Below are positions 952-64,000 of a stretch of DNA of 64,000 nucleotides, in pieces. The stretch spans positions 160,001 to 224,000 of IMG/VR virus record IMGVR_UViG_3300047160_036266. One strand, given 5' to 3'. The first letter of the stretch is position 1; each line of letters opens with the position of its first letter. A program made the position numbers and the translations under genes. Origin of the DNA: a virus (lineage: Duplodnaviria > Caudoviricetes). The notes beneath the pieces are model-generated. The model was given only the letters and a program-made list of their open reading frames with translations. It made no database searches and had not been told where the DNA came from.

Positions 952-1449
952 TCACCGTTTTCTGCCAACGATCACAAAGCTGTAGGGGTGGTCGTCCCAC
1001 TCAAAGATCGGGTCTACATTCAGTTCGTGGAACACCCACTTCATATGGTCGAGACTCATTCCTGGGCACTTGTGGGATTGGTTATATTCTTGTCCAGTCT
1101 TGTCGCAGTGTTCCCGGTACTTCATCTCGTGCGGCAGGCAGAGGATTAGGTTGCCTCCTGGCTTTAATACTCGGAGCCATTCGCGCACGACCTTGCGCGT
1201 AAGTACAAAGTCCTCCAAGAGATGGGAACTATAGATGTAATCCAGCACATCGTCTTTGAACCAGTAAAGATTGGTGGCGTCACCATACAGGTGTTGCGGG
1301 CTACTCCCTACGCTGGTGTATTTGTTGGGCAGGTCCACGGCGATGGCGGTCGGGCAAATGGGATCACCGCCGAAGCCCAGGTCGAGGCCATTTGACTTCG
1401 GCGGTATGAAACGCATGACGAACTTTCGGACATCTGCGGTTTCGCTCAT
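952..1449 (-). CDS. Class I SAM-dependent methyltransferase (type 11-like)
   Basis: GLDLGFGG motif I, DATNL, DYIYSSHLLED, WLRVLKPGG. Confidence 0.85.
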   Translation of the reverse strand: MSETADVRKFVMRFIPPKSNGLDLGFGGDPICPTAIAVDLPNKYTSVGSSPQHLYGDATNLYWFKDDVLDYIYSSHLLEDFVLTRKVVREWLRVLKPGGNLILCLPHEMKYREHCDKTGQEYNQSHKCPGMSLDHMKWVFHELNVDPIFEWDDHPYSFVIVGRKR

Positions 1450-1455
1450 GTTGAA

Positions 1456-2028
1456 TTATAATGCCGGCTTTTGTGCTACGCACTGGAACTTCGCACTTTC
1501 CTCCACAGAAAGTCCGGCCTCCCGAATGGCCCGTTCGACTCCCGGACAATGACCCCACAGCCAATCATCGAAAATCAGATAACCTCCCGGCACCAGCCTG
1601 GGCCAGAAGAATTGAATGGCATCTCGCGTGGTGGTGTAGAGATCGCCGTCGATGTGAACGCAGCAATAGGAAGTATCCACCGCCGTGGATGGAAAATAAC
1701 CGACCCGAAAAATAACATTTTGACCTTGAAGGAGGTTCTGCACATCCTCTAGGCGGGCGGTGAAGTCGCCTTTGTGGTGGGTATGTTCGCCAACGTCATC
1801 GCTCGGCAGACCCTCAAACGTATCATATAAGTATAGGGGTTTTGAAGGGACGGCCAGAGCGAGGACCAAGGCGGAACCGCCTTTGTAGACACCCAATTCC
1901 GCCATATTCCCCTCCAGGTGGGCGGCAGCCCTGGAGAATCTAATGAGTCCGTGTCGTTTGGATTGGTCTATGACGGCGTGATGATCTGTCCTGGCAATGA
2001 TTTCGTGCGGTTCCATTATCTTACTCAT
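1456..2028 (-). CDS. TylF/MycF-family sugar O-methyltransferase
   Basis: AELGVYKGGS, LYDTFEGLP, VHIDGDLY, GGYLIFDDW; start moved to 2028 (ATGAGTAA overlap with upstream stop). Confidence 0.88.
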   Translation of the reverse strand: MSKIMEPHEIIARTDHHAVIDQSKRHGLIRFSRAAAHLEGNMAELGVYKGGSALVLALAVPSKPLYLYDTFEGLPSDDVGEHTHHKGDFTARLEDVQNLLQGQNVIFRVGYFPSTAVDTSYCCVHIDGDLYTTTRDAIQFFWPRLVPGGYLIFDDWLWGHCPGVERAIREAGLSVEESAKFQCVAQKPAL

Positions 2029-2695
2029 AAAGCCGCCTGATAGTCTTTGACTCGCCATGAGTTACCTTAAAAAACTGCCGTGTAGGTGCCGATGGCCGAA
2101 TGGAATTAGCACTTATTACACCGCCCGTATAACGTATCAGATTGCGCATACATTCCGCAGAAGGATGCCATGTGTAGATATACTGGTCCCATGCCGGATA
2201 ATTAAGGAATTCGGCCACACTTCCCGGAAGTGAATTGATAGCCGTCTCGACTAATAGGCAGTCCTTCGTCTTGGCCATGCAGTTTTGCATGGCCAACACG
2301 GGGTTCTCGACATGATAAATTACGCCGAAAAGGAGAATAAGATCAAACCTGCGCCCTTTTAACCCAGGGTGATCGTCTAGGTGCTGCACATCAGCTTGAT
2401 GCACTGCGTATTCCAGGCCAAATGCCTTTTTGGTGAACTCGGTCTGGCGAACGAACAAAGGTTCATTGTCGATGGCCGTTACGGAGGCACCCATTTTCGC
2501 CAGTTCAACCGCCATATAACCACCATTGCAGCCGATGTCCAGTACACTTTTGCCGTGGACATCCGGGAGCAATGGCAATGCCTCATCCCACAGTACCTTG
2601 GGATAATGGGAGCCTGGAACAGTTTCGAGGCCGTTGGGGAAGGTGATATTTTGAAACCACCGACCATTGGCCTCGATTTCCTGTTGTGTGACCAT
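2021..2695 (-). CDS. Class I SAM-dependent methyltransferase (CmoB/DUF1698-like)
   Basis: WFQNITF N-terminus, VLDIGCNGGY, FDLILLFGVIYHVENP. Confidence 0.85.
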   Translation of the reverse strand: MVTQQEIEANGRWFQNITFPNGLETVPGSHYPKVLWDEALPLLPDVHGKSVLDIGCNGGYMAVELAKMGASVTAIDNEPLFVRQTEFTKKAFGLEYAVHQADVQHLDDHPGLKGRRFDLILLFGVIYHVENPVLAMQNCMAKTKDCLLVETAINSLPGSVAEFLNYPAWDQYIYTWHPSAECMRNLIRYTGGVISANSIRPSAPTRQFFKVTHGESKTIRRLYE

Positions 2696-2699
2696 GCCC

Positions 2700-2706
2700 T
2701 ATTTAG
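2700..2706 (-). promoter_or_regulatory. Putative phage late promoter (TANATA motif)
   Basis: CTAAATA-GGGC-ATG; the same 14-mer occurs at 26314-26327. Confidence 0.6.
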
Positions 2707-3263: not shown

Positions 3264-3280
3264 GTTCCTCCTTTGAGGGA

Positions 3281-6711: not shown

Positions 6712-7066
6712 AGTCAAGCAGGCGCTCCGGGACGGCAGGTTCCGAGAACGCCTTCCACCAGAACTGAACGAGGACATCCAAAAGTACCTCCAGAATCCCG
6801 GCTGCGCCTGCAACCTTCCCATCTATCGGCGTGTCATGCAATATGGCGGCGAACAACTCAAAGCCTATTTCCCCGATAAGGAACTGCCCAACATCGAGGA
6901 GGAAATCAAGAACCTTGCCCAGAACCACTGGCTGGTCATCAACTGCAATATCAGTGAACTGGAAGGACGGCTCACCAAACTCCCGCCCGGTCGCAAACAA
7001 ATCGCCGTCGCCCGCTATGAAGATCAAGTGACGGTCATCGTCAATGAGCTTGATTACCTTTACTAG
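6686..7066 (+). CDS. Hypothetical protein
   Basis: 126-aa ORF with PGCACN. Confidence 0.65.
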   Translation: MLKKIGLLEVKQALRDGRFRERLPPELNEDIQKYLQNPGCACNLPIYRRVMQYGGEQLKAYFPDKELPNIEEEIKNLAQNHWLVINCNISELEGRLTKLPPGRKQIAVARYEDQVTVIVNELDYLY

Positions 7067-8021
7067 CCACAATTAGTCGTGAATTACCGATCATCCTTTC
7101 ACAGCCCTCCAGCATTCTTTCGGGGTGGGACTTGTACTTCGGTATCTCCAGCGGCCAATCGTCCGACCGCAGCCGCCGGCTGCCCAGCACCAGGGCGTTC
7201 TTGTAGAAGATGCGGGCCTTTTCGTACTCCTTCTGGGCGTAATAGATGTCCGCCAGCAGGCACCAGAACTCAGCCATCAGCGGTTTGACCGCCAAGCACG
7301 TTATCACATTTCGTATTGCCTCCCGATAATCCTTCTTCACATGGGCCTGGACCTGCGCACAATAGTAGCGGGTCATGGTCATTGGCATCGCTGCGCTTGC
7401 GCTTTTCTCATGAAACAAATAGTAGTCGGCCAATTTCAAAAAATTGTCCCAACGGCGCTGGATGAGCATGACGCAACTCTGGTAGTAGTAAGGTTCTACG
7501 GCGAGCGGAAATCGCTCTTTCCATTTCTTTATAATTTCGAGCGCTTCCTGGGTGTGGTCTACGCTTTCCACCAGAATTACAGCGCCGAGGTCTTGGGCAG
7601 CGCCCGTAAGGGTTTCGTAGACCGGGTTTTGAAAAGCCAGGTTGGTTCGCTTGTTCCACAGGCGTATTTGTTTGGTGAGCATATCCCCCTGGACGCATGA
7701 CAGGTTGTAGGCGGTCTTGATCCTGGGAAGGGCGTCGAGGATGGTTTGGTGCCCGGTGGCCAACACTTCCCAGGGTTCGATGTACATTTGCCATTCCGAG
7801 TCACTGAGGGCGACCATTTCGTTGCGGACCTTGGAGTAGTCGTCGGACAGGCTGAGCCGGATGACTTCAGCCCTGTATTGCCGGCAAATCTTGTGGGTAC
7901 TATCCTTGCAGCCCAGGTCACAGGCGATGATATGGCAGCCCAGGGGCATCAGGGAGTCCAAGGCACGTTCGATGGTCTGTTCATTGTCCTTGAGGAGCAG
8001 GTGGCAAGTCAGGGGGTTCAT
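7041..8021 (-). CDS. GT2 glycosyltransferase-like domain fused to TPR repeats
   Basis: LLLKDNEQTIERALDS...IIACDLGCKDST...DYSKVRNEM; C-terminal TPR (AEFWCLLADIYYAQKEYEKARIFY). Confidence 0.8.
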   Translation of the reverse strand: MNPLTCHLLLKDNEQTIERALDSLMPLGCHIIACDLGCKDSTHKICRQYRAEVIRLSLSDDYSKVRNEMVALSDSEWQMYIEPWEVLATGHQTILDALPRIKTAYNLSCVQGDMLTKQIRLWNKRTNLAFQNPVYETLTGAAQDLGAVILVESVDHTQEALEIIKKWKERFPLAVEPYYYQSCVMLIQRRWDNFLKLADYYLFHEKSASAAMPMTMTRYYCAQVQAHVKKDYREAIRNVITCLAVKPLMAEFWCLLADIYYAQKEYEKARIFYKNALVLGSRRLRSDDWPLEIPKYKSHPERMLEGCERMIGNSRLIVASKGNQAH

Positions 8022-8186: not shown

Positions 8187-9035
8187 ATGCCGAGTAAATG
8201 TGAGATCGCTCCCATCAAGAATGCCTCTCCAGTCCAGAAACCCTGGGAGGGCAACTGCCACAAGAAACCGTGGGAATACCCAATCACCGCTGTTATTCCC
8301 TGCCTGAATACGTCGGAAACACTCCCCTTATGCGTGGAACTTCTCCGACTGCAAACCACCCCACCCTATATCCTGGTCATTGACACCGGCAGCAGTGAGG
8401 AGCATTTGGCCCAGGTCGAAGCTTTGCGCAGTGATGATCTGGAGGTACTGGCGCTACGGTTGAACGGGGTGCAACATCCATCCGACTTTGTTTCGATGGC
8501 GATGGACTGTGCCTTTACCATGTGCAGAACCGAGTTCCTGTTCGCCACCCACGCCGATTGCTTTCTCCGGCGGCGGGACTTCCTCGAAGAACTGATGGAG
8601 AAATGTAAGGTATCCCCGGTCGTTGGTTATGAGATAAGCCCCAGAGCGCACGCCGATTGGCATGGGATGCTTTCCCACACCGCCAGCATGTATCATATGC
8701 CGACGATGGACAGGATCGGCTTTGGTTGGAGCCTTCGACGCCTCTGCAACCTCTTTAACCTGACCGACCACAAACCCAACCCGTTACGCCCTGGCTGGCC
8801 GGACACCGAAATCCTGGGCAACTACATCCTCCGTCACCATAAGATCAAACCCCTCCTCATCGGTTCCGAACAGAACTTCTCCCGGCAGGTGGACGACAAT
8901 ATCGACCATTTCCGCAGCTATACGTCCGCCAAACTCTACAGTCCACAATTCTTCGCCCAGGCAAGCACATGGTTTGCCCTCGCCAAGAAAGAAGCACTCG
9001 AAAGAATAGAAGAATGGAAGAGGACATCAGCCTAA
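8187..9035 (+). CDS. GT2/GT-A glycosyltransferase
   Basis: ITAVIPCLNT, ILVIDTGSS, FATHADCFL (DxD-like). Confidence 0.8.
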   Translation: MPSKCEIAPIKNASPVQKPWEGNCHKKPWEYPITAVIPCLNTSETLPLCVELLRLQTTPPYILVIDTGSSEEHLAQVEALRSDDLEVLALRLNGVQHPSDFVSMAMDCAFTMCRTEFLFATHADCFLRRRDFLEELMEKCKVSPVVGYEISPRAHADWHGMLSHTASMYHMPTMDRIGFGWSLRRLCNLFNLTDHKPNPLRPGWPDTEILGNYILRHHKIKPLLIGSEQNFSRQVDDNIDHFRSYTSAKLYSPQFFAQASTWFALAKKEALERIEEWKRTSA

Positions 9036-30453: not shown

Positions 30454-30476
30454 ACCCTCATTATAGCTGCCACATA

Positions 30477-30512
30477 AAAGAAAACGCCACGGTTGCCCGT
30501 GGCGTTTTCTTT
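30477..30512. terminator. Intrinsic terminator
   Basis: Perfect 16-bp stem AAAGAAAACGCCACGG-TTGC-CCGTGGCGTTTTCTTT. Confidence 0.85.
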
Positions 30513-43309: not shown

Positions 43310-43328
43310 ATTACCTCCTGGTGAGAAT

Positions 43329-43469
43329 ATGAAACTCAAGAATTTCTGGCTTCAGAAAATCCGAGAGAAGTCCCTCCTTAAAATAGTCGAGTGGGCGCAA
43401 AAGAACGGCAAGAAGGTGGAAGACCTTTCCCGTGATGACGTGCGCGAGGCCATCGTTTCGCAGCGCTAA
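43329..43469 (+). CDS. Small 46-aa protein
   Basis: MKLKNFWLQKIRE...; true start lies inside track ORF 43023. Confidence 0.5.
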   Translation: MKLKNFWLQKIREKSLLKIVEWAQKNGKKVEDLSRDDVREAIVSQR

Positions 43470-55800: not shown

Positions 55801-58800
55801 CCCAGGACCGTCCTGGCCGATATATTAGCGACGGCATTGTGTGCCGTGCTGGCGAATGCGCCCAGGACCGTCCTGGCCGATATATTGGCGACTGCGTTAC
55901 GAACCGGACTTGCTGTTGCACCAAGCGTGGTTCTGGCCGATATATTGGCCACGGCGTTGTGCGTCGTGGTGGCGAGCGCCCCCAGGAGGGTTCTCGCAGA
56001 GATGGTGACGACGCCGTTGCGTATCGGGCTTGCTTTTGCGCCCAGGCTGGTCATGCCGGCAAGTTGCGCAGAAGCAGCTAAGGTGGAGGTTTCGTTTGCG
56101 GCCAGGGTGGCGACAGCATGGATGGCACTTCCGCTGACATAACGGACTGCTGCTCGTGTGGTCAACGTGGATGCGCTGACCATTTGCGACAGGCCAGGGC
56201 GGATGACTCCTGTGAAGGAGATAACCGTCGTAAGATCGGTGATGAAAACCCTGCCCGTTACCGTGCCCAAAAGAGTGGACGAGACAGTGGTTTTACCTGT
56301 GAGCGTGGCAGTGCCGGCGCGAGTGACAGCGCTGGTGGCACCAAGCGTTGACCGGGCAGCTAGGAGTCCTACGGCATTACGCGCCGCCGCACCCCTGGCG
56401 GTGATTGTCGTAATGTCTGCCAGGTGGCTGGTCGCCACATGGACCACTGCTGCTGTGCCGGCGAGTGTAGTAGCTGCCTGTAGCGTGGCTGCGGCAACGT
56501 GGACCGTGAAGCCCGTTGCTGCGAGCTTCGTGGCAGCCACCATTGAGGTTTGGCCGATATGGGTTATGGTTGCACTGGTGGGCGTGAAGCTGACATTACA
56601 CCGAAGTGCAGCCGAATCACTTCGGACAGCACGGGACACAAACAATGTGGTGGTCGTGCTATTGAGGAGAGCAGCGGCCCCGTAATTGGTTCTTGCTTTC
56701 GCCGTGATGGTAACGCCAGCAGCCAGTGTTGCCGTGGCACTACGAATAAGAGCGGCGGTTGGAACAACAGTTGATACCGCTGTAATGTTCGCAACCGCAT
56801 TATGCGTAATGATGACGGCCTGGCCGGTGACTCCACCGTAGTCAATTTCAAAGGAGTTTACTTCGCTGGAGTCAATTTCGCCTATCTGCGTGTTTTGAAT
56901 AGTGAACGCCGTCGCAGCGACGAGTGCAGCACTTCCATTAACGAACTTCTTGGCCGCAGCAGTCACCGTGCAGACTGCCGCCAGCGGGGCACTGATCTTG
57001 GCCGTTGTTTGGGACGTGCCCGTGAGCTTGGAGGAAGCAGTTAATGCTGCCTGACCATTACGGTATATTTTTCCGCCAACAACAGTCGTGGCCACGGCGG
57101 CAAGTGCCGCCGCTCCATTGCGGAACCTAATGCCACTGAACGTCGTCGTGCAGGAACCTGCCAAGGACGCTTTGCCTTGGTGAGTGCCTGCGGCAGTAAA
57201 GGTTGTTTTCGCAGCAGCGGCAAGGAAAGCTCCACCGACACCGTTCTTGCCTGCCTTGGGAGTTATGGTGCAGACACCAGCCAGGTTCGCAATTGCATTG
57301 TGCGTAACGGTGTAAGGAACGCCAAGGATTTTGCCCCCGTCGATGGGCATGACATCCACTGGCATCGAATCAATCGCCCCTTTTCGCTTAAATGGCAGCG
57401 ACAGGGTGGTTTTCGCCGCTAACGCCGCAGTCGCCTGGTGGACCAAAGGTGCATTGGTCAGCATCGAGGTCGATGCCTGGAGGCTGGAGGCACCCTGAAC
57501 TAATGTTGTAAAGACGGTGAAGTTATCAAACCAAACGTAGTTGGTCGTTGAAACGGCTCGGATTCCATGCTTGGTGGCCGTGGCAAACGTCGGGTCGTTC
57601 CAGGTCGCAACGGGATTGGCATTGACGTAAAACGTCATCTGACTACCCAGGAGGCTAATTTGCATTAGCCAGGGATTGTTGATGTTTACGCCTACGTTCC
57701 AGTTGGTAACTTGTACGGGAGCGCCACCATTAGCCTGGTAGAGTATGTATTGAGCCGGCGATCCTCCATAGTTCATGAGCATCCAGTAATGAGTGCTATC
57801 AACATAACGGAAGACCAGTCCGCAAACCGCATTGGAAAGTGTCAGCGTGGCGGGTCCGCTGCCTGCCTCGCTGTACATATTGCACTTGATCGTGCAGTCG
57901 CTCATCGAGCTATCGACTACATAGCCGGCGTAGCCGGTTGTGTCGATGGTCGTAGGTACGGCAGCAAAGCTCGGCCACACAAAAACCGACCCAGGTGCCG
58001 CCGCCGTAACCATCATGCAGTTGGGGTCCACCCTCGTCCACCCTGGTCCCGCATCCATGATGTGGGTTAGCAGGTCGGTATTGGCAGCGTCAGTAAAGGA
58101 ATCGAATATCTTGAGCTTGAGCGGTCTTGCGGACAAGCTCGATTGGCAGGTAAGTGAAGCCGATGCCAGCTTGATCGGTGGGCCAGGAACGTAATCGACC
58201 ATCAGGCCGGTCCACGTCATTTTGGTCTTGGCGGTGGCCGATAGTTCCTGTGCGCCCGTTTGCACGTTATCAAGGCCCTGTACCAGCCACGGTTGGGTGG
58301 TGGCGGGGTCCACATCACTGATGAGGCCCATCAGTGTATAAGTTGCGGTCTGGCTCGCTCCACCGCCTAAAAGGTTGGTCGTGCCGGATCGCAGTACGAC
58401 ACCGACGTTGGCCCCGGCGGCGCTTTGAGCGCAGGTGGCGGCAGCCATGACGGAGTTGACCGTTCCGTATAGGCCGGCGGCTTCATGGCCCTGAAAGGCT
58501 TCCGTTTCCAGATCGCCCACATGCCCGGTGGATAATAGGTAAGTCGTGTCGCCGTTCGGTGGGCGTTCGTTGACCTGTTGGTAATTGCTGCCGCTGCCCG
58601 CACCAATGGACCACTGCTGATAAGAACCAGGAGCATAGGGCAGGACGCATCTGCAACCACCGGCTCCTGGGTAGCCGGCCATCGTTACCAACAGATCGTC
58701 AAAGCTGAAAGTGAGTGCCCCGGTATTTGAACCCCAAAACTTGCCCACCGCCACAGAGCCGGTGGGGTTGGAGGTAAGGTTGGCAGTTGTGGAATTGCCG

Positions 58801-59531
58801 TCAACTGTACCGTTGATTTTCCATTGGACATTAGCGGCGGGGCCGGTGCCTACCATGCACTCGAAACGATACCATGTGCCGGTGCTTAATGTGGTAGTGC
58901 CGGTTACTACCGCCCCGCTGCTGGGGTAGCAGTATATTTTTCCAGTATTGTCTACGCCGAAATAGCACTTTTGTGATGCGGAACTTCCTTTTTGCAAAGG
59001 AGCCAAAAAACAGGCGGGTGTGCCGGCATTGACTGGATACGAGTCTATCCGTAACATGAGTCGGCAGTAGACCGTGCCTGCACTCATCGCATTGTTTGCT
59101 GTCGTGCCATTACTAGCCCTGCCGCCTATTAAAACATAAGCCGTGTTGGCAGCCGTGGGCGATATTTGCATACCATAGCTGGACCAAGAACCGGGGGTGG
59201 TCGTTATTATGGTTGGCGTACCATTCACCAGGAACGCTTCAGACAAATCGCCAGTTTCCCAGCCGCAAATGATTTGCGTTCCGCTCGGCTTGAAGCCGGT
59301 GGCTGTTATGGTTGTGTTGGCAACCAGCATAGCTTGCGGGTATGAAGGCGAAGTCAGATATAGGCTTCCCAGAGGCTCACCGGCCAGGGGCGCTGGCACG
59401 GTGTTGACCGGGTTGAGTTTACTTAGCTGAGATGTGGACGTAAAGGACGTAACGGCAGCCAGCACAGCTTGAGGCTGTGTGCTGAGTAGACTGGCTTCCG
59501 CATTGCCCGCAATGGGCAGTTGTCCCTGCAT
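49872..59531 (-). CDS. Giant (3219 aa) repeat fibre/adhesin-like virion protein
   Basis: A/T/V/G-rich 20-aa repeats interrupted by beta-sandwich-like domains; coupled to the fibre paralogs. Confidence 0.8.
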   Translation of the reverse strand: MQGQLPIAGNAEASLLSTQPQAVLAAVTSFTSTSQLSKLNPVNTVPAPLAGEPLGSLYLTSPSYPQAMLVANTTITATGFKPSGTQIICGWETGDLSEAFLVNGTPTIITTTPGSWSSYGMQISPTAANTAYVLIGGRASNGTTANNAMSAGTVYCRLMLRIDSYPVNAGTPACFLAPLQKGSSASQKCYFGVDNTGKIYCYPSSGAVVTGTTTLSTGTWYRFECMVGTGPAANVQWKINGTVDGNSTTANLTSNPTGSVAVGKFWGSNTGALTFSFDDLLVTMAGYPGAGGCRCVLPYAPGSYQQWSIGAGSGSNYQQVNERPPNGDTTYLLSTGHVGDLETEAFQGHEAAGLYGTVNSVMAAATCAQSAAGANVGVVLRSGTTNLLGGGASQTATYTLMGLISDVDPATTQPWLVQGLDNVQTGAQELSATAKTKMTWTGLMVDYVPGPPIKLASASLTCQSSLSARPLKLKIFDSFTDAANTDLLTHIMDAGPGWTRVDPNCMMVTAAAPGSVFVWPSFAAVPTTIDTTGYAGYVVDSSMSDCTIKCNMYSEAGSGPATLTLSNAVCGLVFRYVDSTHYWMLMNYGGSPAQYILYQANGGAPVQVTNWNVGVNINNPWLMQISLLGSQMTFYVNANPVATWNDPTFATATKHGIRAVSTTNYVWFDNFTVFTTLVQGASSLQASTSMLTNAPLVHQATAALAAKTTLSLPFKRKGAIDSMPVDVMPIDGGKILGVPYTVTHNAIANLAGVCTITPKAGKNGVGGAFLAAAAKTTFTAAGTHQGKASLAGSCTTTFSGIRFRNGAAALAAVATTVVGGKIYRNGQAALTASSKLTGTSQTTAKISAPLAAVCTVTAAAKKFVNGSAALVAATAFTIQNTQIGEIDSSEVNSFEIDYGGVTGQAVIITHNAVANITAVSTVVPTAALIRSATATLAAGVTITAKARTNYGAAALLNSTTTTLFVSRAVRSDSAALRCNVSFTPTSATITHIGQTSMVAATKLAATGFTVHVAAATLQAATTLAGTAAVVHVATSHLADITTITARGAAARNAVGLLAARSTLGATSAVTRAGTATLTGKTTVSSTLLGTVTGRVFITDLTTVISFTGVIRPGLSQMVSASTLTTRAAVRYVSGSAIHAVATLAANETSTLAASAQLAGMTSLGAKASPIRNGVVTISARTLLGALATTTHNAVANISARTTLGATASPVRNAVANISARTVLGAFASTAHNAVANISARTVLGAFASTAHNAVANISAKTTLAATASPVRNAVFNIAANTTFAGTSLVVHHAVAPLLATTTTLVTGVIVHSATTTIIAGSSLVAAGRVTHVAASLLTGNTLVLARAVATRVAGAMLTATTTITAATSGTLVGHAVLQANTTLAVTAKLTHNATANLVAVTTTAATAAVTHVASAVMRALNTIIARSAALRPGFASLTNRATVGAKAASKHRGIAFISATTHLATTGRCIRNAVSTLAASATLAATSQGTMRAGAALEANATLALRYSYLGMIDSQPINAGPINGGMQVGNPVMVTHNAIAALSANSLLVGTGRTQSSAAILLSGTTNVIGQAAVFHTGVTSFVCNASAWVRAVVTRNAAATLTATTTITAATSGTLVGHVMLQGDTSFGGVGCITAAGVCRITAISTTASTTTVTHNGTTLLAALSTLISPAAVARPGAVSIQATTAVVAIPAAVRHAGATLISTTNGVSVQLLDHFTDVNSTYLQNHTMDSGQAWTVAAGTWYIQNNQLNNLGGNGYAWANTGTTHYSAQITFVNPGVNDNGLIFRIIDTNNLWIWGIKGKLYEVISNAGTLYLDLGYTPVNGDTIGITVSGDTVDVYLNGVLKGTHTGATQTATLTDTRVGLCSVSDPNPIWDNFSVLTKVAQPTGTVTHNAAASLAAQTIVAATPAAIRWDAAALVARTTLTDAGRVAYSATALLASDLTVSGTAIAARNAVLSLQADTTLATTGIVSHAAHALLVGNAIVTSMAAVSHVGAVSMTARTTISAATSGTLVGDVIFTVNTVVTSFAGAIRNADTRLHIVSSVLAVGSATHTGTANMGAVTTLAATSVAARPAAAAIAATVTVTSIGKTLYGAGTAIKGSTQVTASAAVTHTAAVALVATSTVLPAANPVYSGTANLAAISTITAFTSNKVAVEASLSCVTVMGAVPSVELGASASLTDIATVGTTAAVTQGATCHIVSTALVMAVAAPTRNGAATIGATTTLLVTGVVDHIGSSAMLAQSAVMVAASPVHNGAATLTAQTTMVLATSGTKVGHAVITCSTTFGAVPNVNLGGSVSLTGICTTTVNGAAVHTGIGYLVAVTSVAANASAIRPAAILIPATATFLSTGVVTHAGACNMAVQTTVSPQVSLAHNAVAALDSITTITAATSRRVVGGATLSCSTLVGGIAEVNMGASAALVDVSTVAITPAVRHNTTSDMSAITLLMANSAPVRMGAAFIVATSTLTSTGVVLHNAIANITSQTKLLPVASVSRPASVVLGATVTLASTSAVTHNATSIIVGDSSLTVTGTTIHLGAAVLTAKTTITAATSGTMVAHVNILAITTFTSSGRIAHEAVANLMDVTTVGAAANAVYAGGSNIIGNTTVGATPASVRSGTAILAATTLVSATSNPVRNAAGGLQAFTMLTASGVVAHIASTQILVNTTLTAMAGLAIQPAAATIVAKTTLAATSQVARKAAAVMRGKTTIIAATVGTIVGNVMMTATTVFLAQADTILGANALLTDVTTVASTAAVMHNGVTNITATSSVTATGLTVHNAVALITAQTTLVPAAYVGPRGILTCITSLTAPTTVLHTAGAALVSTTTLTAVESEIFDGQASLGAITTTLVTGWTAHVSGVSIQSVASLSAYAIVDYVAAATLTSDTTLASTAQMTLRGTALLAADTTLIAFNVAIEAGVCHMQAVTTTGAFAGVILGGIASVVCEWYFGADADVISAGNALLAGNTTVGAYANAHWVAAANISCTTKLTPKPWYILNTTGTSVGYAVVNGIGQIVALPSRTILYPPGTWVYAQGQGCRVEVVESVHMTAQQNVYVMVSGRIFREDMLSVVYQYPIYQAMTFQKALEGGASHYGESNITATQNGKTIRNYNAFGCVNYTLAPAKAVAPTHPSQFMNLTHVPTTPPVPVPPQDVPVGRYPPPTVLIPTPYVHKHVPGRSGQSQRVSGKHTPVKAGRAVSSSTRTAPVERVNMQQTKANKQRGRRR
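55754..55993 (-). repeat. 60-nt coding tandem repeat (about 4 units)
   Basis: TGGCCGATATATT recurs every 60 nt; unit NAVANISARTVLGAFASTAH. Confidence 0.9.
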
Positions 59532-59534
59532 TCC

Positions 59535-60713
59535 TTACCCCCAGATAGTCCCTGTGACGCCACCCGCAAGCTGATTGGTGTAAAAGTCATAAAAAGTGAT
59601 GACGTTGCTTCCTGTGATGTACTCGACGGGCTGCAAGTAGTGATAGCCAATCCCCGGAAATTGATTGTATTCGGCAGTTATCATACCTTCGATAGCTGAT
59701 GCTGTCCCACCAAACTGAGGGATATAGGAGTCGGTAAAGCTCGGCGCTCCGGTTCCGTCGAGAGTTAGTCCTAAACTCCCGAAGGTGTTTACAGCACAGG
59801 AGAGTATGCACGAGGCCCGCACATTGACCACCCGCACGGGCGGGGTGAGGCCGTATACAAATTCCACGGCTCGGACTTTGGTAACGTCACCGTTTTGACC
59901 ACGCCAAGCCAAAGGCCCGGTGACATTCCAGCTTCCGGTCTGTGGGAAGTTTGCGATCCGGCGTGGTAACTGGTTGTAGAAGTTCCAAACGAAGCGCTGT
60001 TTTGGAGCATCAGCCGTCGTGGTTGCGCTGGTAGGGTAGATTGTTCCCAGATAGCGCCAGCCATTGGTAACTACGCTGACCATCGGTATGCCGTCCACAT
60101 AATTGATAGCCGTCTGCCGGGTGGTTGCGGTTTGCCATTGGGCGTAGTTCAACTGTAACCCAGCGTTATCTACGACGAACACATCGTAGGGTAAACCGGC
60201 TGTTAAACCCGATAAAGACAAGCTCAGTTCGGTGAAATCAAAAATTCTCCACTGACCCGCTCCCTGCGTTTGTGGCTCCGGTATGGCGATCTGGCCCCCT
60301 GCCAGGGGCGTAAAGTAGAGAGTGGAACCGCTCGTGGAGTCCGCACCTGGCTGTCCGCTGACCAATCCCAAACGTCCTTCGCAGAGAGAAGGTCGCACAC
60401 GGGGCAGATACGCACTTATTGCTGTCAAGAACACATCTTTGTTGCCGCCAGAAAAATTGGTGAACGATCCTGTCCCCACGCTGCCATCAAGGACATAGCT
60501 CCTTGTCAGGGTGGCGCTGCCGCTGTCGATGCTACCGACGCCCGTTTCCCAATCCCCGGCGGTTTGGTGGGCGATGCAGTAGGTGGTCTGGAGGGCAGCG
60601 CCGGTGGTGTTCAACTGCTTCCAGGGGCCGGTGGCGGCATTGAGAGTGAAATTGCCCGTCCCGGTTGACGTTGACGTTTGCTTGCGGCGGTCGTAGTACA
60701 GGGGATTCGGCAT
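59535..60713 (-). CDS. Tail fibre/spike-like protein, paralog 3
   Basis: DRRKQTSTSTGTG...WETGVG...LTR...NFSGGNKDVF; CEGRL...TLYFTP. Confidence 0.75.
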   Translation of the reverse strand: MPNPLYYDRRKQTSTSTGTGNFTLNAATGPWKQLNTTGAALQTTYCIAHQTAGDWETGVGSIDSGSATLTRSYVLDGSVGTGSFTNFSGGNKDVFLTAISAYLPRVRPSLCEGRLGLVSGQPGADSTSGSTLYFTPLAGGQIAIPEPQTQGAGQWRIFDFTELSLSLSGLTAGLPYDVFVVDNAGLQLNYAQWQTATTRQTAINYVDGIPMVSVVTNGWRYLGTIYPTSATTTADAPKQRFVWNFYNQLPRRIANFPQTGSWNVTGPLAWRGQNGDVTKVRAVEFVYGLTPPVRVVNVRASCILSCAVNTFGSLGLTLDGTGAPSFTDSYIPQFGGTASAIEGMITAEYNQFPGIGYHYLQPVEYITGSNVITFYDFYTNQLAGGVTGTIWG

Positions 60714-60746
60714 TTATACCCTCCCGTGGTCATAGAATGCGCTCAT
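60714..60746 (-). CDS. 10-aa leader mini-ORF MSAFYDHGRV
   Basis: TACATA 5 nt upstream; TAA abuts the next ATG. Confidence 0.45.
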   Translation of the reverse strand: MSAFYDHGRV

Positions 60747-60784
60747 ACCCGTATGTAGTTCTTTTAGATGCAAACCTGCGTGGA

Positions 60785-61981
60785 TTACGCCCAGATGGTG
60801 CCAATGACGCCGGTGGCGTTGCGATTAGCAACGCTGTCATACCATATCACGCCATAGGCTCCTACTGAGATGTCCTCCACGGGTTGCAAATAATGATAGC
60901 CAACGGTTGCTGGAATTTGGTTGTATTCGGCTGTGGCCGTGGTCTGCGCGAAATAGGAGTTGTTGTAAGCGCTACACTCTATTACAACGGAATCGGTATA
61001 GCTCGGCGCTCCGGTTCCATCCAAGGTTAGGCCAAGTCCGACCCAGGTGCCTGTTGTTCCAAGGACGACATAGATCGTAGCGCGAGCGTTGACAGGTCGA
61101 AAGGGTGCCAGGCCGAGGACAAATTCCAGGGCGCGTGCTTTGGTGGCGTCGGCATTCTGAGCGCGCCAGGCCAACAGGCCAGTTGCGGACCAGCTTCCGG
61201 TGCCTGGGAAATTCGCCATTCGCCGTGGCATCTGGTTGTAATAATTCCACACGAATCGCTGTTTGGGGCTGTCAGCCGTGTTGGACGTGTTAGCGGCGTA
61301 AAAGGTGCCCAGGTAGCGATAGCCTTGGGTCGCTGGTCCGACCATTGGAATGCCGTCTACATATGTAATTGCCGATGAGCGGGTCGTTGCGTTGGTCCAC
61401 TGGTTTGCGCCAAGGGACAAGGTGCCGTTGCTATCCCCCACAAAAATATCGTAGCACATGCCGGCAGTAAGACCAATCACACCTAAACTGATGCTCATTT
61501 CAGTGAAATCGTACAGTTTCCACTGGCCGGTTCCCAAAGTAGGTTCCGGCATGGCGATCTGGTTCCCCATGTAAGGGGTAAAATACAAAGTTGACCCGCT
61601 CGCTGAGTCGGCACCGGGCGACCCGCTAACCAGTCCCAACCGTCCCTCGCAAATCCCAGGTCTTACGCGAGGTAGGTACGAACTAATGGCCGTTGAGAAC
61701 ACATCCTTGTTCCCACCCGAAAAATTGGTAAATGTACCGGGGCCGGCGCTGCCATCGAGGGCGTAAGTTCTAGTTAGCGTGCTGCTTGTACTGTCAACGC
61801 TGCCCACGCCTGTCTCCCAATCCCCTGCTGTCTGGTGGGCTATACAGTAGGTGAGGGTGAGAGCAGCGCCGCTGGTGTTCAGTTGCTTCCAAGGGCCTGT
61901 CGGAGCCGTGAGAGTAAAGGCACCCGTCCCGGTAGTAATGGAAGGTTGCTTGCGGCGGTCGAAGTAGACGGGATTGGGCAT
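60785..61981 (-). CDS. Tail fibre/spike-like protein, paralog 2
   Basis: Same motifs end to end as its neighbours. Confidence 0.75.
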   Translation of the reverse strand: MPNPVYFDRRKQPSITTGTGAFTLTAPTGPWKQLNTSGAALTLTYCIAHQTAGDWETGVGSVDSTSSTLTRTYALDGSAGPGTFTNFSGGNKDVFSTAISSYLPRVRPGICEGRLGLVSGSPGADSASGSTLYFTPYMGNQIAMPEPTLGTGQWKLYDFTEMSISLGVIGLTAGMCYDIFVGDSNGTLSLGANQWTNATTRSSAITYVDGIPMVGPATQGYRYLGTFYAANTSNTADSPKQRFVWNYYNQMPRRMANFPGTGSWSATGLLAWRAQNADATKARALEFVLGLAPFRPVNARATIYVVLGTTGTWVGLGLTLDGTGAPSYTDSVVIECSAYNNSYFAQTTATAEYNQIPATVGYHYLQPVEDISVGAYGVIWYDSVANRNATGVIGTIWA

Positions 61982-61998
61982 TTTTTCCTTTCTTTGAA

Positions 61999-63171
61999 TT
62001 AGGCCCAGATCGTACCTTGAACGCCGCCGACAAAGCGGTTGGCATAATAATCGTACCAGCCTACGGTTCCCGTGCCGACCTGGATGGCTTCTGTGGGCTG
62101 AAGGTAGTGATACCCGATAGGTGGAATTTGATTATATTCGGCAGTCATAAAACCTGACTGGTTGCCGCCACCTTCCACTGTGAACGCATCAGTGAGGCTA
62201 GGTGTCCAGTTTGCCGATGAAGCATCTAGTGTCAGCCCTAGTTCTGGGAAGGTGCCTGCGGGTGTGTTGTAGTAAATCGCCGCACGGACATTAACAGGTC
62301 GCAGCGGAGGCGTTAGGCCGATAACGAACTCAACGGCTCGTGCTTTGGTGGTATCGGTGTTTTGTCCCCGCCATGCCAGGTTGCCCACTCCGCTCCAGGT
62401 TCCGGTGGCAGGAAAGTTTCCCATTCGGCGTGGTATCGAGTTGTAGTAATTCCACACAAACCTCTGTTTGGGGTAGTCCGCCGTGGTAGTCGCAGTAACC
62501 GGGTTGATCGTACCCAGGTAGCGGTAATTACCTATCAATGGAATCCCGTCCACAAAAGTAATTGCCACCGAACGCGCTGTTGCACTGGCCCATTGTTGAG
62601 TGCTTAAACCTAAAACGCCGTTGGTATCAACGAGAGAAACGTCAAATGGGATGTTTGCAATTTGCCCGGAAATCGGAGTGCTGATTTCGGTAAAGTCATA
62701 CAGTTTCCACTGGCCGGCTCCCATACTGGCGGTTTCAGGCATGGCGACCTGAGTGCCTTGAAATGGGGTAAAGTACACTGTCGAACTACTTGTTACGTCT
62801 GTGGTGGGCGAGCCGCTTTGCAGTCCCAGGCGTCCATGACACGTCCAGGGGTTGACGCGAGGCATATAGTTTGCCAGCGGCGTGATGAAAACGTCTTTAT
62901 TGCCGCCGGAGAAATTAGTAAGATTACCCGCCCCGGCGCTGCCATCAAACACTGTACTCCGTGTGAGGGTCTGACTAAGGTTGTCCACACTGCCCAGGCC
63001 GACTTCCCAATCACTGGCGGTCTGGTGGGCAATACAATAGGGAATAGCAAGAGTCGAAGGCGTTGTATTCAGGGCCTTCCACGGGCCGACCACGGGATTA
63101 AGCGTGAAAGCGCCCTGTCCCGTGCTTGTAGACACCTGCTTGCGGCGGTCGAAGTAGATGGGATTGGGCAT
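61999..63171 (-). CDS. Tail fibre/spike-like protein, paralog 1
   Basis: Same motifs end to end as its neighbours. Confidence 0.75.
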   Translation of the reverse strand: MPNPIYFDRRKQVSTSTGQGAFTLNPVVGPWKALNTTPSTLAIPYCIAHQTASDWEVGLGSVDNLSQTLTRSTVFDGSAGAGNLTNFSGGNKDVFITPLANYMPRVNPWTCHGRLGLQSGSPTTDVTSSSTVYFTPFQGTQVAMPETASMGAGQWKLYDFTEISTPISGQIANIPFDVSLVDTNGVLGLSTQQWASATARSVAITFVDGIPLIGNYRYLGTINPVTATTTADYPKQRFVWNYYNSIPRRMGNFPATGTWSGVGNLAWRGQNTDTTKARAVEFVIGLTPPLRPVNVRAAIYYNTPAGTFPELGLTLDASSANWTPSLTDAFTVEGGGNQSGFMTAEYNQIPPIGYHYLQPTEAIQVGTGTVGWYDYYANRFVGGVQGTIWA

Positions 63172-63204
63172 TTATACCCTCCTTTGGTCGTATAAAGCGC
63201 TCAT
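63172..63204 (-). CDS. 10-aa leader mini-ORF MSALYDQRRV
   Basis: TACATA 5 nt upstream; TAA abuts the next ATG. Confidence 0.45.
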   Translation of the reverse strand: MSALYDQRRV

Positions 63205-63257
63205 ATACCTATGTAGGTCCACCAGCCACAATTGTCGCAGGAACACTCCCTTAAACC

Positions 63258-64000
63258 ATGAATGTCATAAAACACTGCCGTAGCGGCCTGATGCTTTTCA
63301 ACAGTAACGACGCTTATATCGGCAAATCCTTTCTGGAATATGGCGAGTTCTCCCAGGGAGAAGTGGACTTATTCGAGGCGATCATCAAGCCGGGCATGAC
63401 CGTCTTGGACATCGGGGCCAATATCGGCGCTTTCTCCATTCCCTTCGCCCAGATGGTCGGGCCGCAAGGCACCGTCTTTGCCTACGAGCCACAACGCATG
63501 TGCTACTATCTCCTTTGTGCCAACGTGGCTCTGAACAACCTGACCAACGTGATCTGCCTCCAGAATGCCGTAGGCAAGGAGGGTGGTCGTATTGACGTTC
63601 CAGAGCTTGATTTCGGCAAGCCAGCTAACTTTGGTGGCCTGGAGCTTGGCAAGGATTACCCGGAGGCTCGCAGCAAATGTTCGGTGAAACTCATCAAGTT
63701 GGACGAAACGGGCTTTGCCAAGGTGGATTTCATCAAGATCGACGTGGAGGGGATGGAGCCAGATGTGTTTATGGGAGCGAGGGAACTTATCCGGCGGGAC
63801 CGCCCCTTTATCTACATGGAATGCGACCGGGGCGAGAATATGAGCCTGCTGGTCAAACTCGCCAAGGCGGCGAGTTATGACATCTATTTCCATGCCCCGC
63901 AATTGTATAATTCTGACAACTATCTCCGCAACCCTCGCAATGAATTCGGCCCGATTTCCTCCATCAACATGCTTTGCTGGCCCCAAGAGGTCGCGTTCCC
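63258..64000 (+). CDS. FkbM-family methyltransferase, partial (not in ORF track)
   Basis: D.YIGKS...YGEFS..E, VLDIGANIG, VFAYEPQ, DFIKIDVEGME. Confidence 0.9.
   Translation, partial: MNVIKHCRSGLMLFNSNDAYIGKSFLEYGEFSQGEVDLFEAIIKPGMTVLDIGANIGAFSIPFAQMVGPQGTVFAYEPQRMCYYLLCANVALNNLTNVICLQNAVGKEGGRIDVPELDFGKPANFGGLELGKDYPEARSKCSVKLIKLDETGFAKVDFIKIDVEGMEPDVFMGARELIRRDRPFIYMECDRGENMSLLVKLAKAASYDIYFHAPQLYNSDNYLRNPRNEFGPISSINMLCWPQEVAF

What the first reader, a model, noticed from the sequence alone, without database searches (positions are those of the whole stretch)
952..64000. Dispersed sugar-nucleotide, glycosyltransferase and O-methyltransferase toolkit: a candidate phage virion glycosylation system
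Seen: GT2-TPR (7041), GT2 (8187), a GT-A-like gene (40029), RmlA-like (29713), HldD-like epimerase (42389), GNA1-like (28726), TylF sugar O-MTase plus two SAM MTases in one operon (952-2695), and FkbM (63258). Several sit in or beside structural modules. The GT pair lies between the tube and baseplate-chaperone genes, the MTase operon follows the tube-like gene under the TANATA motif, and FkbM abuts the fibre genes. Known: TylF methylates sugar hydroxyls, GT2-TPR fusions often glycosylate proteins, and giant eukaryotic viruses glycosylate fibrils with their own enzymes. Inference: the phage builds a methylated glycan and attaches it to virion proteins, with the very Thr-rich 3219-aa fibre as the obvious acceptor.
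Basis: partly seen in the sequence, partly recalled or inferred. Interest (0 to 1): 0.8.

Follow-up and report, generated by a model that had tools for sequence, protein, structure and literature searches.

The report
Megaphage protein-glycosylation toolkit, acceptor unproven
An uncultured giant phage carries a real, scattered set of sugar-activating, sugar-transferring and methylating enzymes whose closest characterised relatives glycosylate proteins. It therefore probably sugar-coats proteins of its own particle, but no target has been shown.

Summary
FkbM (63258) is the first domain of a 735-aa FkbM-TPR-glycosyltransferase. Its C-terminal domain folds as a GT9-like GT-B, and its best Swiss-Prot match by far is FlmG/FlbA, the TPR-guided flagellin O-glycosyltransferase. 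The family-less gene at 40029 folds as a GT-A with an invariant E-D-D.

Gene neighbourhood in other phages ties the dispersed genes together. Of 80 IMG/VR loci holding a 40029 homologue, 25 have a TPR-GT9-like gene just upstream. An HldD-like epimerase lies within 10 kb in 23 and an RmlA-like gene in 17. FkbM, TylF-type or SAM methyltransferases abut the homologue in single loci.

GT2-TPR (nearest: ThuS, GmaR, SunS) keeps its place in the tail module in three diverged lineages. The methyltransferase trio is a variable insert. A relative with a 70%-identical enzyme keeps the pairing of the FkbM-TPR-GT gene with a giant Thr/Ser/Ala-rich 20-residue-repeat protein, but the 25 more distant loci do not.

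Protein glycosylation is well supported; a virion target is plausible; the fibre as acceptor is weakly supported. This scan found similar systems on at least eight other genomes.

The parts
952..1449 (-). SAM-dependent methyltransferase, third gene of the methyltransferase trio
   Evidence: Pfam Methyltransf_11/23. An 82%-identical homologue sits at the same place in relative L007; it is absent from L008 and L009-12. A homologue abuts a 40029-type GT-A in L101.
1456..2058 (-). TylF-family (sugar) O-methyltransferase
   Evidence: PF05711, 65.8 bits against a cut-off of 23. It is the only copy in the record. The nearest PDB sequences are NovP and MycF. It is absent from the nearest relative L007. 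A TylF-type or Methyltransf_24 gene abuts the GT-A homologue in L066 and on the P0123 contig.
2021..2695 (-). SAM-dependent methyltransferase, first gene of the trio; overlaps the TylF gene by 38 nt
   Evidence: Pfam Methyltransf_23/25/11 and TIGR04290-like at 109 bits, below cut-off. A 52%-identical homologue is in L007.
2700..2706 (-). CTAAATA promoter-like motif, 11 nt upstream of the methyltransferase trio; it overlaps the stop codon of the tube-like gene 2703-3323
   Evidence: 42 of 104 CTANATA sites lie in upstream zones, against 6.8% expected. The motif also precedes the sheath gene, the 390-aa paralogues and a 4154-aa gene.
7041..8021 (-). GT-A (GT2-like) + TPR glycosyltransferase, a conserved gene of the tail module
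   Evidence: TPR by Pfam. GT half by PHROG 13126, NCBIfam SunS (weak) and PDB ThuS/GmaR/SunS. It keeps the same position in L007 (70%), L008 (43%) and L009-12 (38%).
8187..9035 (+). GT2 glycosyltransferase, immediately upstream of the gp55-like late sigma gene (9135-9677) on the same strand
   Evidence: PF00535, 30.4 bits. Homologues are in L007 (80%) and L008 (67%); it is absent from L009-12. Sigma factor: PHROG 234.
29713..30558 (-). RmlA-like sugar-1-phosphate nucleotidylyltransferase; the true start is probably the Met at about 30453
   Evidence: PF00483, 188 bits; TIGR01207, 224 bits, below cut-off. It lies in an operon with UDG4 and NAMPT, next to Thg1. An RmlA-like gene lies within 10 kb of the GT-A homologue in 17 of 80 loci. 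N-terminus read.
40029..40868 (-). GT-A fold glycosyltransferase of a mostly viral family with no Pfam model; likely glycan extender
   Evidence: Model pLDDT 97. Foldseek: POMGnT1, LH3 GT domain, TarP, GnT-I, SpsA, ExoW, PglI. E89 is invariant; D90 and D91 are nearly invariant. There are 467 IMG/VR relatives.
42389..43339 (-). HldD-like (ADP-heptose 6-epimerase-like) SDR epimerase
   Evidence: TIGR02197, 238 bits (cut-off 275); next best GalE, 106. It stays near the GT-A homologue in relatives. HldE lies elsewhere in the genome.
49872..59531 (-). 3219-aa Thr/Ser/Ala-rich protein with 20-residue periodicity; candidate acceptor (inferred)
   Evidence: T 15.1%, S 7.9%, A 17.0%. Identity at lag 20 is 0.205 against about 0.09 background. 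Homologue P0251 (3585 aa) lies beside the 70%-identical FkbM-TPR-GT in a relative. No family or PDB hit.
59535..63171 (-). Three paralogous ~390-aa genes (59535-60713, 60785-61981, 61999-63171) upstream of the giant gene; tail-protein-like; candidate acceptors or partners
   Evidence: 59-65% identical to each other. The Atlas model matches a Phage_tail_beta (PF27114) cluster at TM 0.70. A homologue follows a 2233-aa ORF in L013. CTACATA lies upstream of two of them.
63258..64000 (+). Start of the 735-aa FkbM methyltransferase + TPR + FlmG-like GT-B protein (ends at 65465, outside the window), divergent from the fibre-like operon
   Evidence: Pfam FkbM and TPR, GT9 at 19 bits. C-terminal model pLDDT 93. 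PDB: GT9 3tov, TibC, WaaF, WaaC. Swiss-Prot AFDB: FlbA/FlmG, E 6.8e-13, next hit 2e-7.

Best explanation
The phage encodes a cytoplasmic protein O-glycosylation system whose genes are scattered over the genome.

Donors (by homology): an HldE outside the window plus the HldD-like epimerase (42389) would make ADP-heptose. The RmlA-like enzyme (29713) would make an NDP-hexose.

Transfer (inferred): the FlmG-class enzyme (63258-65465) docks on a protein through its TPR domain and puts the first sugar on Ser or Thr. The GT-A (40029) is its operon partner in many other phages and extends the glycan. A second pair, GT2-TPR (7041) and GT2 (8187), sits inside the tail module and probably modifies a tail component.

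Tailoring (inferred): the fused FkbM domain, the TylF-like enzyme and two further SAM methyltransferases O-methylate the sugars.

Acceptors (inferred, least certain): proteins of the phage particle. The leading candidates are the 3219-aa Thr/Ser/Ala-rich 20-residue-repeat protein and the three ~390-aa tail-like paralogues, which are transcribed divergently from the FkbM-TPR-GT gene.
For: Enzyme identities.

Folds: the GT9-like GT-B domain (pLDDT 93) has FlmG/FlbA as its best Swiss-Prot match, at E 6.8e-13 against 2e-7 for the next hit. FlmG is an experimentally shown TPR-guided flagellin O-glycosyltransferase (PMC7591256). The 40029 protein has a GT-A fold with an E-D-D motif.

GT2-TPR: its nearest solved sequences are ThuS, GmaR and SunS, all protein or peptide glycosyltransferases.

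Functional linkage: in 25 of 80 IMG/VR loci a TPR-GT9-like gene lies just upstream of the GT-A homologue; it abuts or overlaps it in 23. The epimerase is within 10 kb in 23 loci and RmlA-like in 17. FkbM, TylF-type or SAM methyltransferases abut the GT-A in L061, L066, L101 and the P0123 contig.

Structural context: GT2-TPR keeps its place between the tube/sigma genes and the baseplate hub in three lineages whose sheath proteins are 35-78% identical.

Acceptor pairing: a relative with a 70%-identical FkbM-TPR-GT keeps the divergent pairing with a homologous 3585-aa protein that shares the composition and the 20-residue period. A 35%-identical homologue sits among genes of 737 aa (Beta_helix), 1014 aa and 1172 aa.

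Other: no enzyme has a membrane segment. The methyltransferase trio follows a CTANATA motif shared with the sheath and fibre-like genes. Phage virion glycosylation has precedent in mycobacteriophages (Freeman et al. 2023, as cited in PMC12619734).
Against: - No glycan, acceptor or expression time has been observed.
- The 3219-aa protein and the 390-aa paralogues match no known fibre family. Their virion role rests on an Atlas structure lead and on context in other phages.
- None of the 25 more distant loci holding the TPR-GT/GT-A pair has an ORF of 1200 aa or more within 10 kb. There the pair lies in a non-structural block with Prim-Pol, RNA ligase, Thg1 and NAMPT. Fibre adjacency is therefore recent and lineage-specific.
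- Much of the neighbourhood signal could be inherited synteny, and several loci are near-duplicates.
- RmlA-like is co-transcribed with UDG4 and NAMPT, not with structural genes.
- GmhA and GmhB were not found, so heptose supply would depend on the host or on the unseen part of the genome.
- FlmG transfers pseudaminic acid, not heptose, so the donor is uncertain.
- HldD, RmlA, GT9 and SunS all score below their curated cut-offs.
Confidence: 0.5

Rival explanations
1. The enzymes remodel a host envelope glycan (LPS core or O-antigen, teichoic acid, capsule) during infection, for example to block superinfection or destroy receptors. They would not act on phage proteins.
For: The GT9 fold, HldE and HldD are the LPS-core heptose toolkit, and WaaC and WaaF are among the structural hits. 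The GT-A model also matches the prophage teichoic-acid transferase TarP and lipid-linked glycan extenders such as ExoW, PglI and AglG. The ancestral position of the TPR-GT/GT-A pair is non-structural.
Against: Both key transferases carry TPR protein-binding domains, and their best characterised matches are protein or peptide glycosyltransferases. None of the 13 sugar enzymes tested (ten in the window, three in the 24-44 kb island) has a membrane segment, but flippases, polymerases and Gtr-type proteins were not searched for. GT2-TPR is a conserved gene of the tail module.
Confidence: 0.17
2. The genes do not form one system. GT2-TPR/GT2 serve the tail. The TPR-GT/GT-A/epimerase set modifies some non-virion protein, either host or injected. 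RmlA-like and the methyltransferases have unrelated substrates such as small molecules, RNA or proteins.
For: The genes sit in four or more separate transcription units and contexts. The methyltransferase trio is a variable insert. Two of its members are generic SAM methyltransferases. RmlA-like always travels with UDG4, Thg1 and NAMPT. FlmG-class enzymes in bacteria target flagellins.
Against: Each enzyme family recurs next to the GT-A homologue in at least one other phage, and the TPR-GT/GT-A adjacency persists at 34-45% identity. A TylF-type gene overlaps the GT-A start in a close relative.
Confidence: 0.2
3. The sugar enzymes hypermodify phage DNA (glycosylated bases) to evade restriction.
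For: RmlA-like lies in an operon with a family-4 uracil-DNA glycosylase, among nucleotide and RNA-repair genes. Phage glycosyltransferases are known to glycosylate DNA (Pyle et al. 2024, as cited in PMC12619734). The sheath's best phage match is Bacillus phage SP-15; from my own knowledge, unchecked here, SP-15 has glycosylated DNA.
Against: No thymidylate-synthase-family hydroxymethylase is in the 343-kb record. TPR fusions and the FlmG/GmaR/SunS likeness point to protein acceptors. The record is incomplete, so this is not excluded.
Confidence: 0.06

Closest known systems
FlmG (FlbA, P21296) of Caulobacter, the TPR-guided flagellin O-glycosyltransferase (PMC7591256)
   Same: An N-terminal TPR domain is followed by a C-terminal GT-B domain. 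FlmG residues 304-593 are the best Swiss-Prot structural match of the phage domain, at E 6.8e-13 and TM 0.60. Both are cytoplasmic and soluble.
   Different: The phage protein has an extra N-terminal FkbM methyltransferase. Identity is only 19%. No flagellin and no pseudaminic-acid pathway genes were found; the phage instead encodes HldE and an HldD-like enzyme. The gene sits beside a giant repeat protein.
Bacterial autotransporter heptosyltransferases TibC/Aah (BAHT; PMC4358343, PDB 4rap/4rb4)
   Same: A GT9-like GT-B catalytic fold. ADP-heptose is a plausible donor. The acceptor idea is also similar: a long repetitive Ser/Thr-bearing protein.
   Different: There is no N-terminal beta-barrel (TPR instead) and no conserved four-Cys iron finger. 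TibC and Aah score about seven orders of magnitude worse than FlmG. This is not a BAHT member.
GT2-TPR protein/peptide glycosyltransferases GmaR (Listeria flagellin O-GlcNAc), SunS and ThuS (glycocin S-/O-glycosylation)
   Same: The 7041-8021 protein has the same GT-A plus TPR order, and these are its nearest solved sequences. SunS is also its best NCBIfam model.
   Different: The matches are weak: E 3e-6 to 0.02, and 30 bits against a 350-bit cut-off. They cover only the nucleotide-binding half. The gene is a fixed part of a phage tail module.
Mycobacteriophage virion glycosylation (Freeman et al. 2023, Cell Host Microbe; cited in PMC12619734)
   Same: Phage-encoded glycosyltransferases lie next to structural genes. 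In that system glycans were found on capsid and tail-tube C-termini.
   Different: That system is experimentally shown in actinobacteriophages with small genomes. This one is a prediction in an uncultured megaphage, with FlmG-class and GT9-like enzymes, its own heptose activation, several methyltransferases and dispersed genes.
TylF/NovP/MycF deoxysugar O-methyltransferases
   Same: The Pfam TylF domain scores over its cut-off, and the nearest PDB sequences are NovP and MycF.
   Different: The phage protein is shorter (200 aa against 250-280 aa). Those enzymes act on antibiotic sugars; the substrate here is unknown.

Membership tests
TylF (PF05711) sugar O-methyltransferases | Pfam TylF domain above the gathering score | tested here: met
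   65.8 bits against 23; 62.6 bits in the genome search.
TylF (PF05711) sugar O-methyltransferases | Acidic metal-binding and catalytic motifs (D-x-D...D-D), as recalled for NovP and MycF | tested here: inconclusive
   The sequence reads HIDGDLY ... IFDDW. No residue-level alignment to NovP or MycF was made; the motif is from memory.
FlmG-class flagellin O-glycosyltransferases | N-terminal TPR domain plus C-terminal GT-B domain | tested here: met
   TPR at residues 297-412. GT-B model of residues 416-735, pLDDT 93. FlmG residues 304-593 are the top Swiss-Prot hit.
FlmG-class flagellin O-glycosyltransferases | Flagellin acceptor and a nonulosonic (pseudaminic) acid donor | tested here: not met
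   No NeuB or CMP-sugar synthetase family is in the record. The neighbours are a giant repeat protein and tail-like genes, not flagellins. The record is incomplete.
BAHT (TibC/Aah) | N-terminal beta-barrel and four-Cys iron-finger insertion (PMC4358343) | tested here: not met
   TPR precedes the catalytic domain. None of the invariant or nearly invariant columns of alignment A1 is Cys.
GT9 (PF01075) heptosyltransferases | Pfam GT9 above cut-off; GT-B fold of the GT9 type | tested here: inconclusive
   Sequence: 19 bits against a 22-bit cut-off. Fold: the top PDB hits are GT9 3tov, TibC, WaaF and WaaC at TM 0.5-0.57.
GT2 (PF00535) | Pfam GT2 above cut-off | tested here: met
   8187-9035 scores 30.4 against 23.3. 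For 7041-8021 the Pfam model gave no hit at E 0.01; only PHROG, NCBIfam and PDB gave weak matches.
SunS family S-glycosyltransferases (TIGR04195) | Score above the equivalog cut-off | tested here: not met
   30.2 bits against 350.
HldD, ADP-glyceromanno-heptose 6-epimerase (TIGR02197) | Score above the equivalog cut-off | tested here: not met
   237.7 bits against 274.6. It is still the best model by more than 130 bits over GalE, hence 'HldD-like'.
ADP-heptose pathway (GmhA, HldE, GmhB, HldD) | All four steps encoded | tested here: not met
   HldE is present at genome 33687-35081, and an HldD-like enzyme is present. GmhA and GmhB were not found. The record is about 69% complete, or about half of a 670-kb contig.
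RmlA, glucose-1-phosphate thymidylyltransferase (TIGR01207) | Score above the equivalog cut-off; partner genes RmlB, RmlC and RmlD | tested here: not met
   223.6 bits against 360.65. No RmlC was found.
GNA1 (glucosamine-6-phosphate N-acetyltransferase) | A specific family match beyond the GNAT fold | tested here: not met
   Only generic GNAT hits. The gene is absent from the syntenic block of a relative.
Phage virion glycosylation (mycobacteriophage type) | Glycan detected on virion proteins | not testable with these tools
   The phage is uncultured and no proteomic data exist.

The most novel reading that the evidence does not exclude
The phage runs two separate virion-glycosylation systems.

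(i) A FlmG-class TPR enzyme with a fused methyltransferase, together with its GT-A partner, lays a methylated heptose-containing glycan on giant 20-residue-repeat fibres. This pair is widespread in large phages.

(ii) The SunS/ThuS/GmaR-like GT2-TPR, a fixed gene of the tail module, glycosylates the Cys-rich C-terminal tails of the tube protein. These tails are found on tube paralogues in all three lineages and are of the type C-x(5-8)-CC-x-x-C. The linkage could be S-linked, which would be the first S-glycosylated virus particle.
Probability: 0.1. Interest if true: 0.85.

Novelty: new variant of a known kind. Interest (0 to 1): 0.58.

Why it matters
Sugar coats on phage particles are known experimentally only from mycobacteriophages, where they blunt antibody recognition. 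If the prediction holds, a large clade of environmental jumbo phages and megaphages carries a different system. At least 25 of 80 sampled loci, out of 467 relatives in IMG/VR, share it. Its core is a flagellin-glycosyltransferase-like TPR enzyme paired with a phage-specific GT-A, and the phage supplies its own activated sugars and methyl caps. That would bear on phage stability, receptor binding, immune or defence evasion, and how giant fibres are built. It would also supply new soluble protein glycosyltransferases for glyco-engineering. The work further gives a function lead for a large viral protein family that has no Pfam model.

Tried and rejected
- Near and protein searches of the phage collection found no close relative. 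Only the sheath matched, at 38% or less.
- The search for related loci with the single FkbM-TPR-GT protein found nothing in viral contigs.
- The search for homologous proteins on residues 1-700 of the giant protein returned nothing.
- Pfam, PHROGs and PDB sequence searches gave nothing for the giant protein, the 390-aa paralogues, 41335-42423, or the 382-aa gene downstream of FkbM that another note called GT9-like. The GT9 reading of that gene is not supported.
- Complex prediction of GT2-TPR with the tube protein returned 'no answer'. It is not used either way.
- An HMM-based count of the 20-residue repeats recovered only 8 clean units. I therefore rely on the autocorrelation.
- BAHT membership was considered and rejected.
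- The GNA1 reading of the GNAT was rejected.
- The Freeman 2023 paper could not be opened; it is cited through PMC12619734.

Full report
**What the window is.** It is bases 160001-224000 of a 343,421-bp IMG/VR virus record with 55.8% G+C. CheckV puts the record at about 69% complete. Two of its proteins, the FkbM-TPR-GT and the 40029 GT-A, are also on record on a 669,797-bp contig, so the phage is probably a megaphage of which this is roughly half. No close relative exists among deposited phage genomes. The 811-aa protein at 11206-13641 is a tail sheath, at most 38% identical to any known one. I called genes with a codon-usage model trained on the genome itself.

**Check of the observation.** All ten ORFs exist, and nine carry the stated kind of domain.
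- The trio at 952-2695(-) is translationally coupled. It consists of a SAM methyltransferase, a TylF-family enzyme (65.8 bits against a 23-bit cut-off) and a second SAM methyltransferase. The nearest solved sequences of the TylF-family enzyme are the deoxysugar O-methyltransferases NovP and MycF.
- 8187-9035(+) is GT2, above cut-off.
- 29713-30558(-) is a sugar-1-phosphate nucleotidylyltransferase closest to RmlA, but below the equivalog cut-off.
- 42389-43339(-) is an SDR epimerase. Its best model by more than 130 bits is ADP-heptose 6-epimerase HldD, again just below cut-off.
- 7041-8021(-) shows only TPR in Pfam. Its N-terminal half matches a PHROG glycosyltransferase, the SunS model and the PDB sequences of ThuS, GmaR and SunS.
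- 40029-40868(-) matches no family. With an alignment of 57 homologues it folds at pLDDT 97 into a GT-A, with E89 invariant and D90 and D91 nearly invariant.
- The FkbM gene continues to 65465 and encodes FkbM + TPR + a C-terminal domain.
- The "GNA1-like" gene is only a generic GNAT.

**Context.** The tail module is confirmed. It comprises a sheath stabiliser (13861-14880), the sheath, two tube paralogues (10581-11186 and 9978-10499), a gp55-like late sigma factor (9135-9677) and a baseplate hub (4339-5418). GT2-TPR and GT2 lie inside it. The methyltransferase trio follows the gene at 2703-3323. By eye, the C-terminal half of that gene's product resembles the two tube proteins, though it matched no family.

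CTAAATA lies 11 nt upstream of the trio. Genome-wide, 42 of 104 CTANATA sites lie 7-120 nt upstream of same-strand starts. Position alone predicts 6.8%, and composition-matched control motifs gave 6-23%. The motif also precedes the sheath gene, two of the 390-aa paralogues and a 4154-aa gene. It also precedes a NUDIX gene, so "late" timing is an inference.

By contrast, RmlA-like is co-transcribed with a family-4 uracil-DNA glycosylase, the GNAT and NAMPT, next to Thg1, an RNA ligase and NUDIX. The GT-A and the HldD-like gene lie among Prim-Pol, an esterase and a COOH-NH2 ligase. These four genes are therefore not beside structural genes.

**The FkbM-TPR-GT protein.** Its C-terminal 320 residues, folded with 63 homologues (pLDDT 93), form a GT-B of the GT9 type. 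PDB neighbours are a Veillonella GT9, TibC, WaaF and WaaC at TM 0.5-0.57.

Against Swiss-Prot models the best hit by far is FlbA/FlmG of Caulobacter, residues 304-593, at E 6.8e-13. The next hits are LPS heptosyltransferases at 2e-7, and TibC and Aah at about 7e-6. I took the FlmG lead from two earlier reports of this scan and tested it here.

FlmG is the experimentally shown flagellin O-glycosyltransferase. Its N-terminal TPR domain binds the substrate, and its C-terminal GT domain alone is insufficient (PMC7591256). The phage protein has the same TPR-then-GT order, with an FkbM methyltransferase added in front.

It lacks the defining BAHT features, namely the beta-barrel and the four-Cys iron finger (PMC4358343), because alignment A1 has no conserved Cys. 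It is therefore FlmG-like, not a TibC/Aah member. Homologues with FkbM, TPR and this domain in various orders are common in metagenomes and in Proteobacteria.

**Are the dispersed genes one system?** This was the most informative test.
- The GT-A of 40029 has 467 relatives in IMG/VR. I analysed the best 80 loci, each with 10 kb of flank.
- In 25 loci a gene matching my HMM of the FlmG-like domain lies on the same strand just upstream of the GT-A. In 23 it abuts or overlaps the GT-A start; in 2 it is 1.4 kb away.
- In L019 and L020 that upstream gene is a 516- or 552-aa TPR protein that matches the HMM at E 1e-89 to 1e-95.
- An SDR epimerase similar to the HldD-like enzyme lies within 10 kb in 23 loci, and an RmlA-like gene in 17.
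- Single loci have an FkbM gene (L061), a TylF-like gene (L066) or a homologue of the 952 methyltransferase (L101) directly next to the GT-A.
- In a 69%-identical relative a Methyltransf_24 (TylF-type) gene overlaps the GT-A start.

In our phage the TPR-GT gene has moved 23 kb away, gained an FkbM domain and landed next to the giant gene.

Caveats: several loci are near-duplicates. Much of the region is syntenic across the clade, including Prim-Pol, RNA ligase, Thg1 and NAMPT. Part of the signal may therefore be inherited gene order. The operon-like TPR-GT/GT-A junction at only 34-45% identity, and the rearranged but still linked layout in L043 and L044, argue for real coupling.

**The tail-module pair.** GT2-TPR keeps its exact place in three lineages: L007 at 70%, L008 at 43% and L009-12 at 38% identity. 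Their sheath proteins are 35-78% identical to ours. GT2 is present in two of the three lineages. The methyltransferase trio is variable. L007 has two of the genes but no TylF; L008 has none. In L009-12 the position holds unrelated genes (VWA, an RNA ligase, a histidine kinase).

**The acceptor.** The 3219-aa protein has 15.1% Thr, 7.9% Ser and 17.0% Ala, and is poor in acidic residues. It shows a clear 20-residue periodicity: identity at lag 20 is 0.205 against about 0.09. It matches no family or solved structure.

Its N-terminal module (residues 85-453) is a widespread, mostly stand-alone ~370-aa domain with 1471 hits. Other giant proteins with this module also show a 20-residue period. One lies near capsid genes and another near a GT8 gene.

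In a relative whose FkbM-TPR-GT is 70% identical, that gene is again transcribed divergently from a 3585-aa gene. The 3585-aa protein aligns to 2520 of the 3219 residues at 25-33% identity and has the same composition and period. The enzyme is conserved while its neighbour diverges fast, as receptor-binding proteins do.

A 35%-identical enzyme sits among genes of 737 aa (Beta_helix), 1014 aa and 1172 aa. A 51%-identical one sits inside a sugar island.

The three ~390-aa paralogues resemble a Phage_tail_beta cluster by structure at TM 0.70, which is a lead only. One homologue follows a 2233-aa ORF in another phage.

Against the fibre idea, none of the 25 distant loci with the TPR-GT/GT-A pair has an ORF of 1200 aa or more within 10 kb.

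**Donors.** The genome encodes a bifunctional HldE next to a 760-aa GT9-containing protein and a GT2, in addition to the HldD-like enzyme. GmhA, GmhB, RmlC, NeuB, CMP-sugar synthetase and thymidylate-synthase-type hydroxymethylase were not found in this incomplete record. Heptose and a hexose are thus the likeliest phage-supplied sugars, but the donor of each transferase is unknown.

**Other points.** None of the enzymes has a hydrophobic segment typical of membrane proteins. By eye, none begins with the N-terminal motif shared by 32156, 38299 and 38592, which may be the capsid-targeting leader described in another report on this genome.

**Verdict.** A protein-directed glycosylation and methylation system is the best reading (about 0.5). 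Virion proteins are plausible acceptors, and the giant protein is one candidate. The rivals are host-envelope remodelling, several unrelated functions, and DNA modification. The kind is known from mycobacteriophages (Freeman 2023, via PMC12619734), and this scan has met similar heptose/FlmG-like or TibC-like systems beside fibres in at least eight other phage genomes. I found no paper on phage-encoded protein heptosylation or on FlmG-class enzymes in phages in two literature searches. I therefore rate this a new variant of a known kind.

Noticed in passing
window 9978-11186; loci L007-L009: The tube paralogues of the 10581 type carry a Cys-rich C-terminal tail after the tube fold, and it is conserved in all three related lineages. 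Examples are NGCSGAINPCCDGC, CPSGSIDKCPCTPC and LCPEFTPEACCSGCG. This could be a metal or disulfide knot, or a modification site for the neighbouring SunS/ThuS-like GT2-TPR.
   Followed up: partly
window 7981-8169 (-): A 62-codon ORF overlaps the start of GT2-TPR by 41 nt. It is conserved in L007 (68%) and L008 (31%), and its sequence looks like a TPR-type helix pair. It is either a small partner protein or a sign of a mis-called or frameshifted start.
   Followed up: partly
window 27309-34463: A conserved block of NAMPT, (GNAT), family-4 UDG, RmlA-like, Thg1-like and an RNA ligase, with NUDIX nearby. It recurs in relatives. Pairing a sugar nucleotidylyltransferase with a UDG is unusual and unexplained.
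   Followed up: partly
whole genome; window 2706, 24380, 26314, 32600, 46684: The CTANATA motif very often starts exactly 11 nt before the start codon. That leaves only 4 nt between motif and ATG and no room for a Shine-Dalgarno sequence. It suggests leaderless or near-leaderless transcripts, or a combined promoter and translation signal.
   Followed up: partly
window 49872-59531, residues 85-453: The N-terminal module of the giant protein is a very common phage domain with 1471 hits. It is mostly a stand-alone protein of about 370 aa and has no Pfam model.
   Followed up: partly
L065, L083, L086, L094, L095: Homologues of the 40029 GT-A also occur on contigs labelled as giant-virus (GVMAG) bins. 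On L065 the GT-A match lies inside a 1470-aa ORF; on L083, L094 and L095 an ORF of 1572-1850 aa lies close downstream.
   Followed up: no
whole record: The FkbM-TPR-GT and the 40029 GT-A are on record on a 669,797-bp contig. The 343-kb IMG/VR record, labelled 'provirus', is therefore probably about half of a megaphage genome. Absences reported here hold only for this half.
   Followed up: no
genome 283121-283555 (outside the window): A weak Maf/MptE-like match (E 1e-3, below cut-off) lies directly downstream of a 1237-aa Pro/Thr/Ser/Val-rich repeat protein. This is possibly a second fibre and glycosyltransferase pairing.
   Followed up: partly
window 29713-30558: The longest ORF of the RmlA-like gene adds 35 basic residues in front of the canonical MRGIILAGG start. 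The real start is probably near 30453.
   Followed up: no
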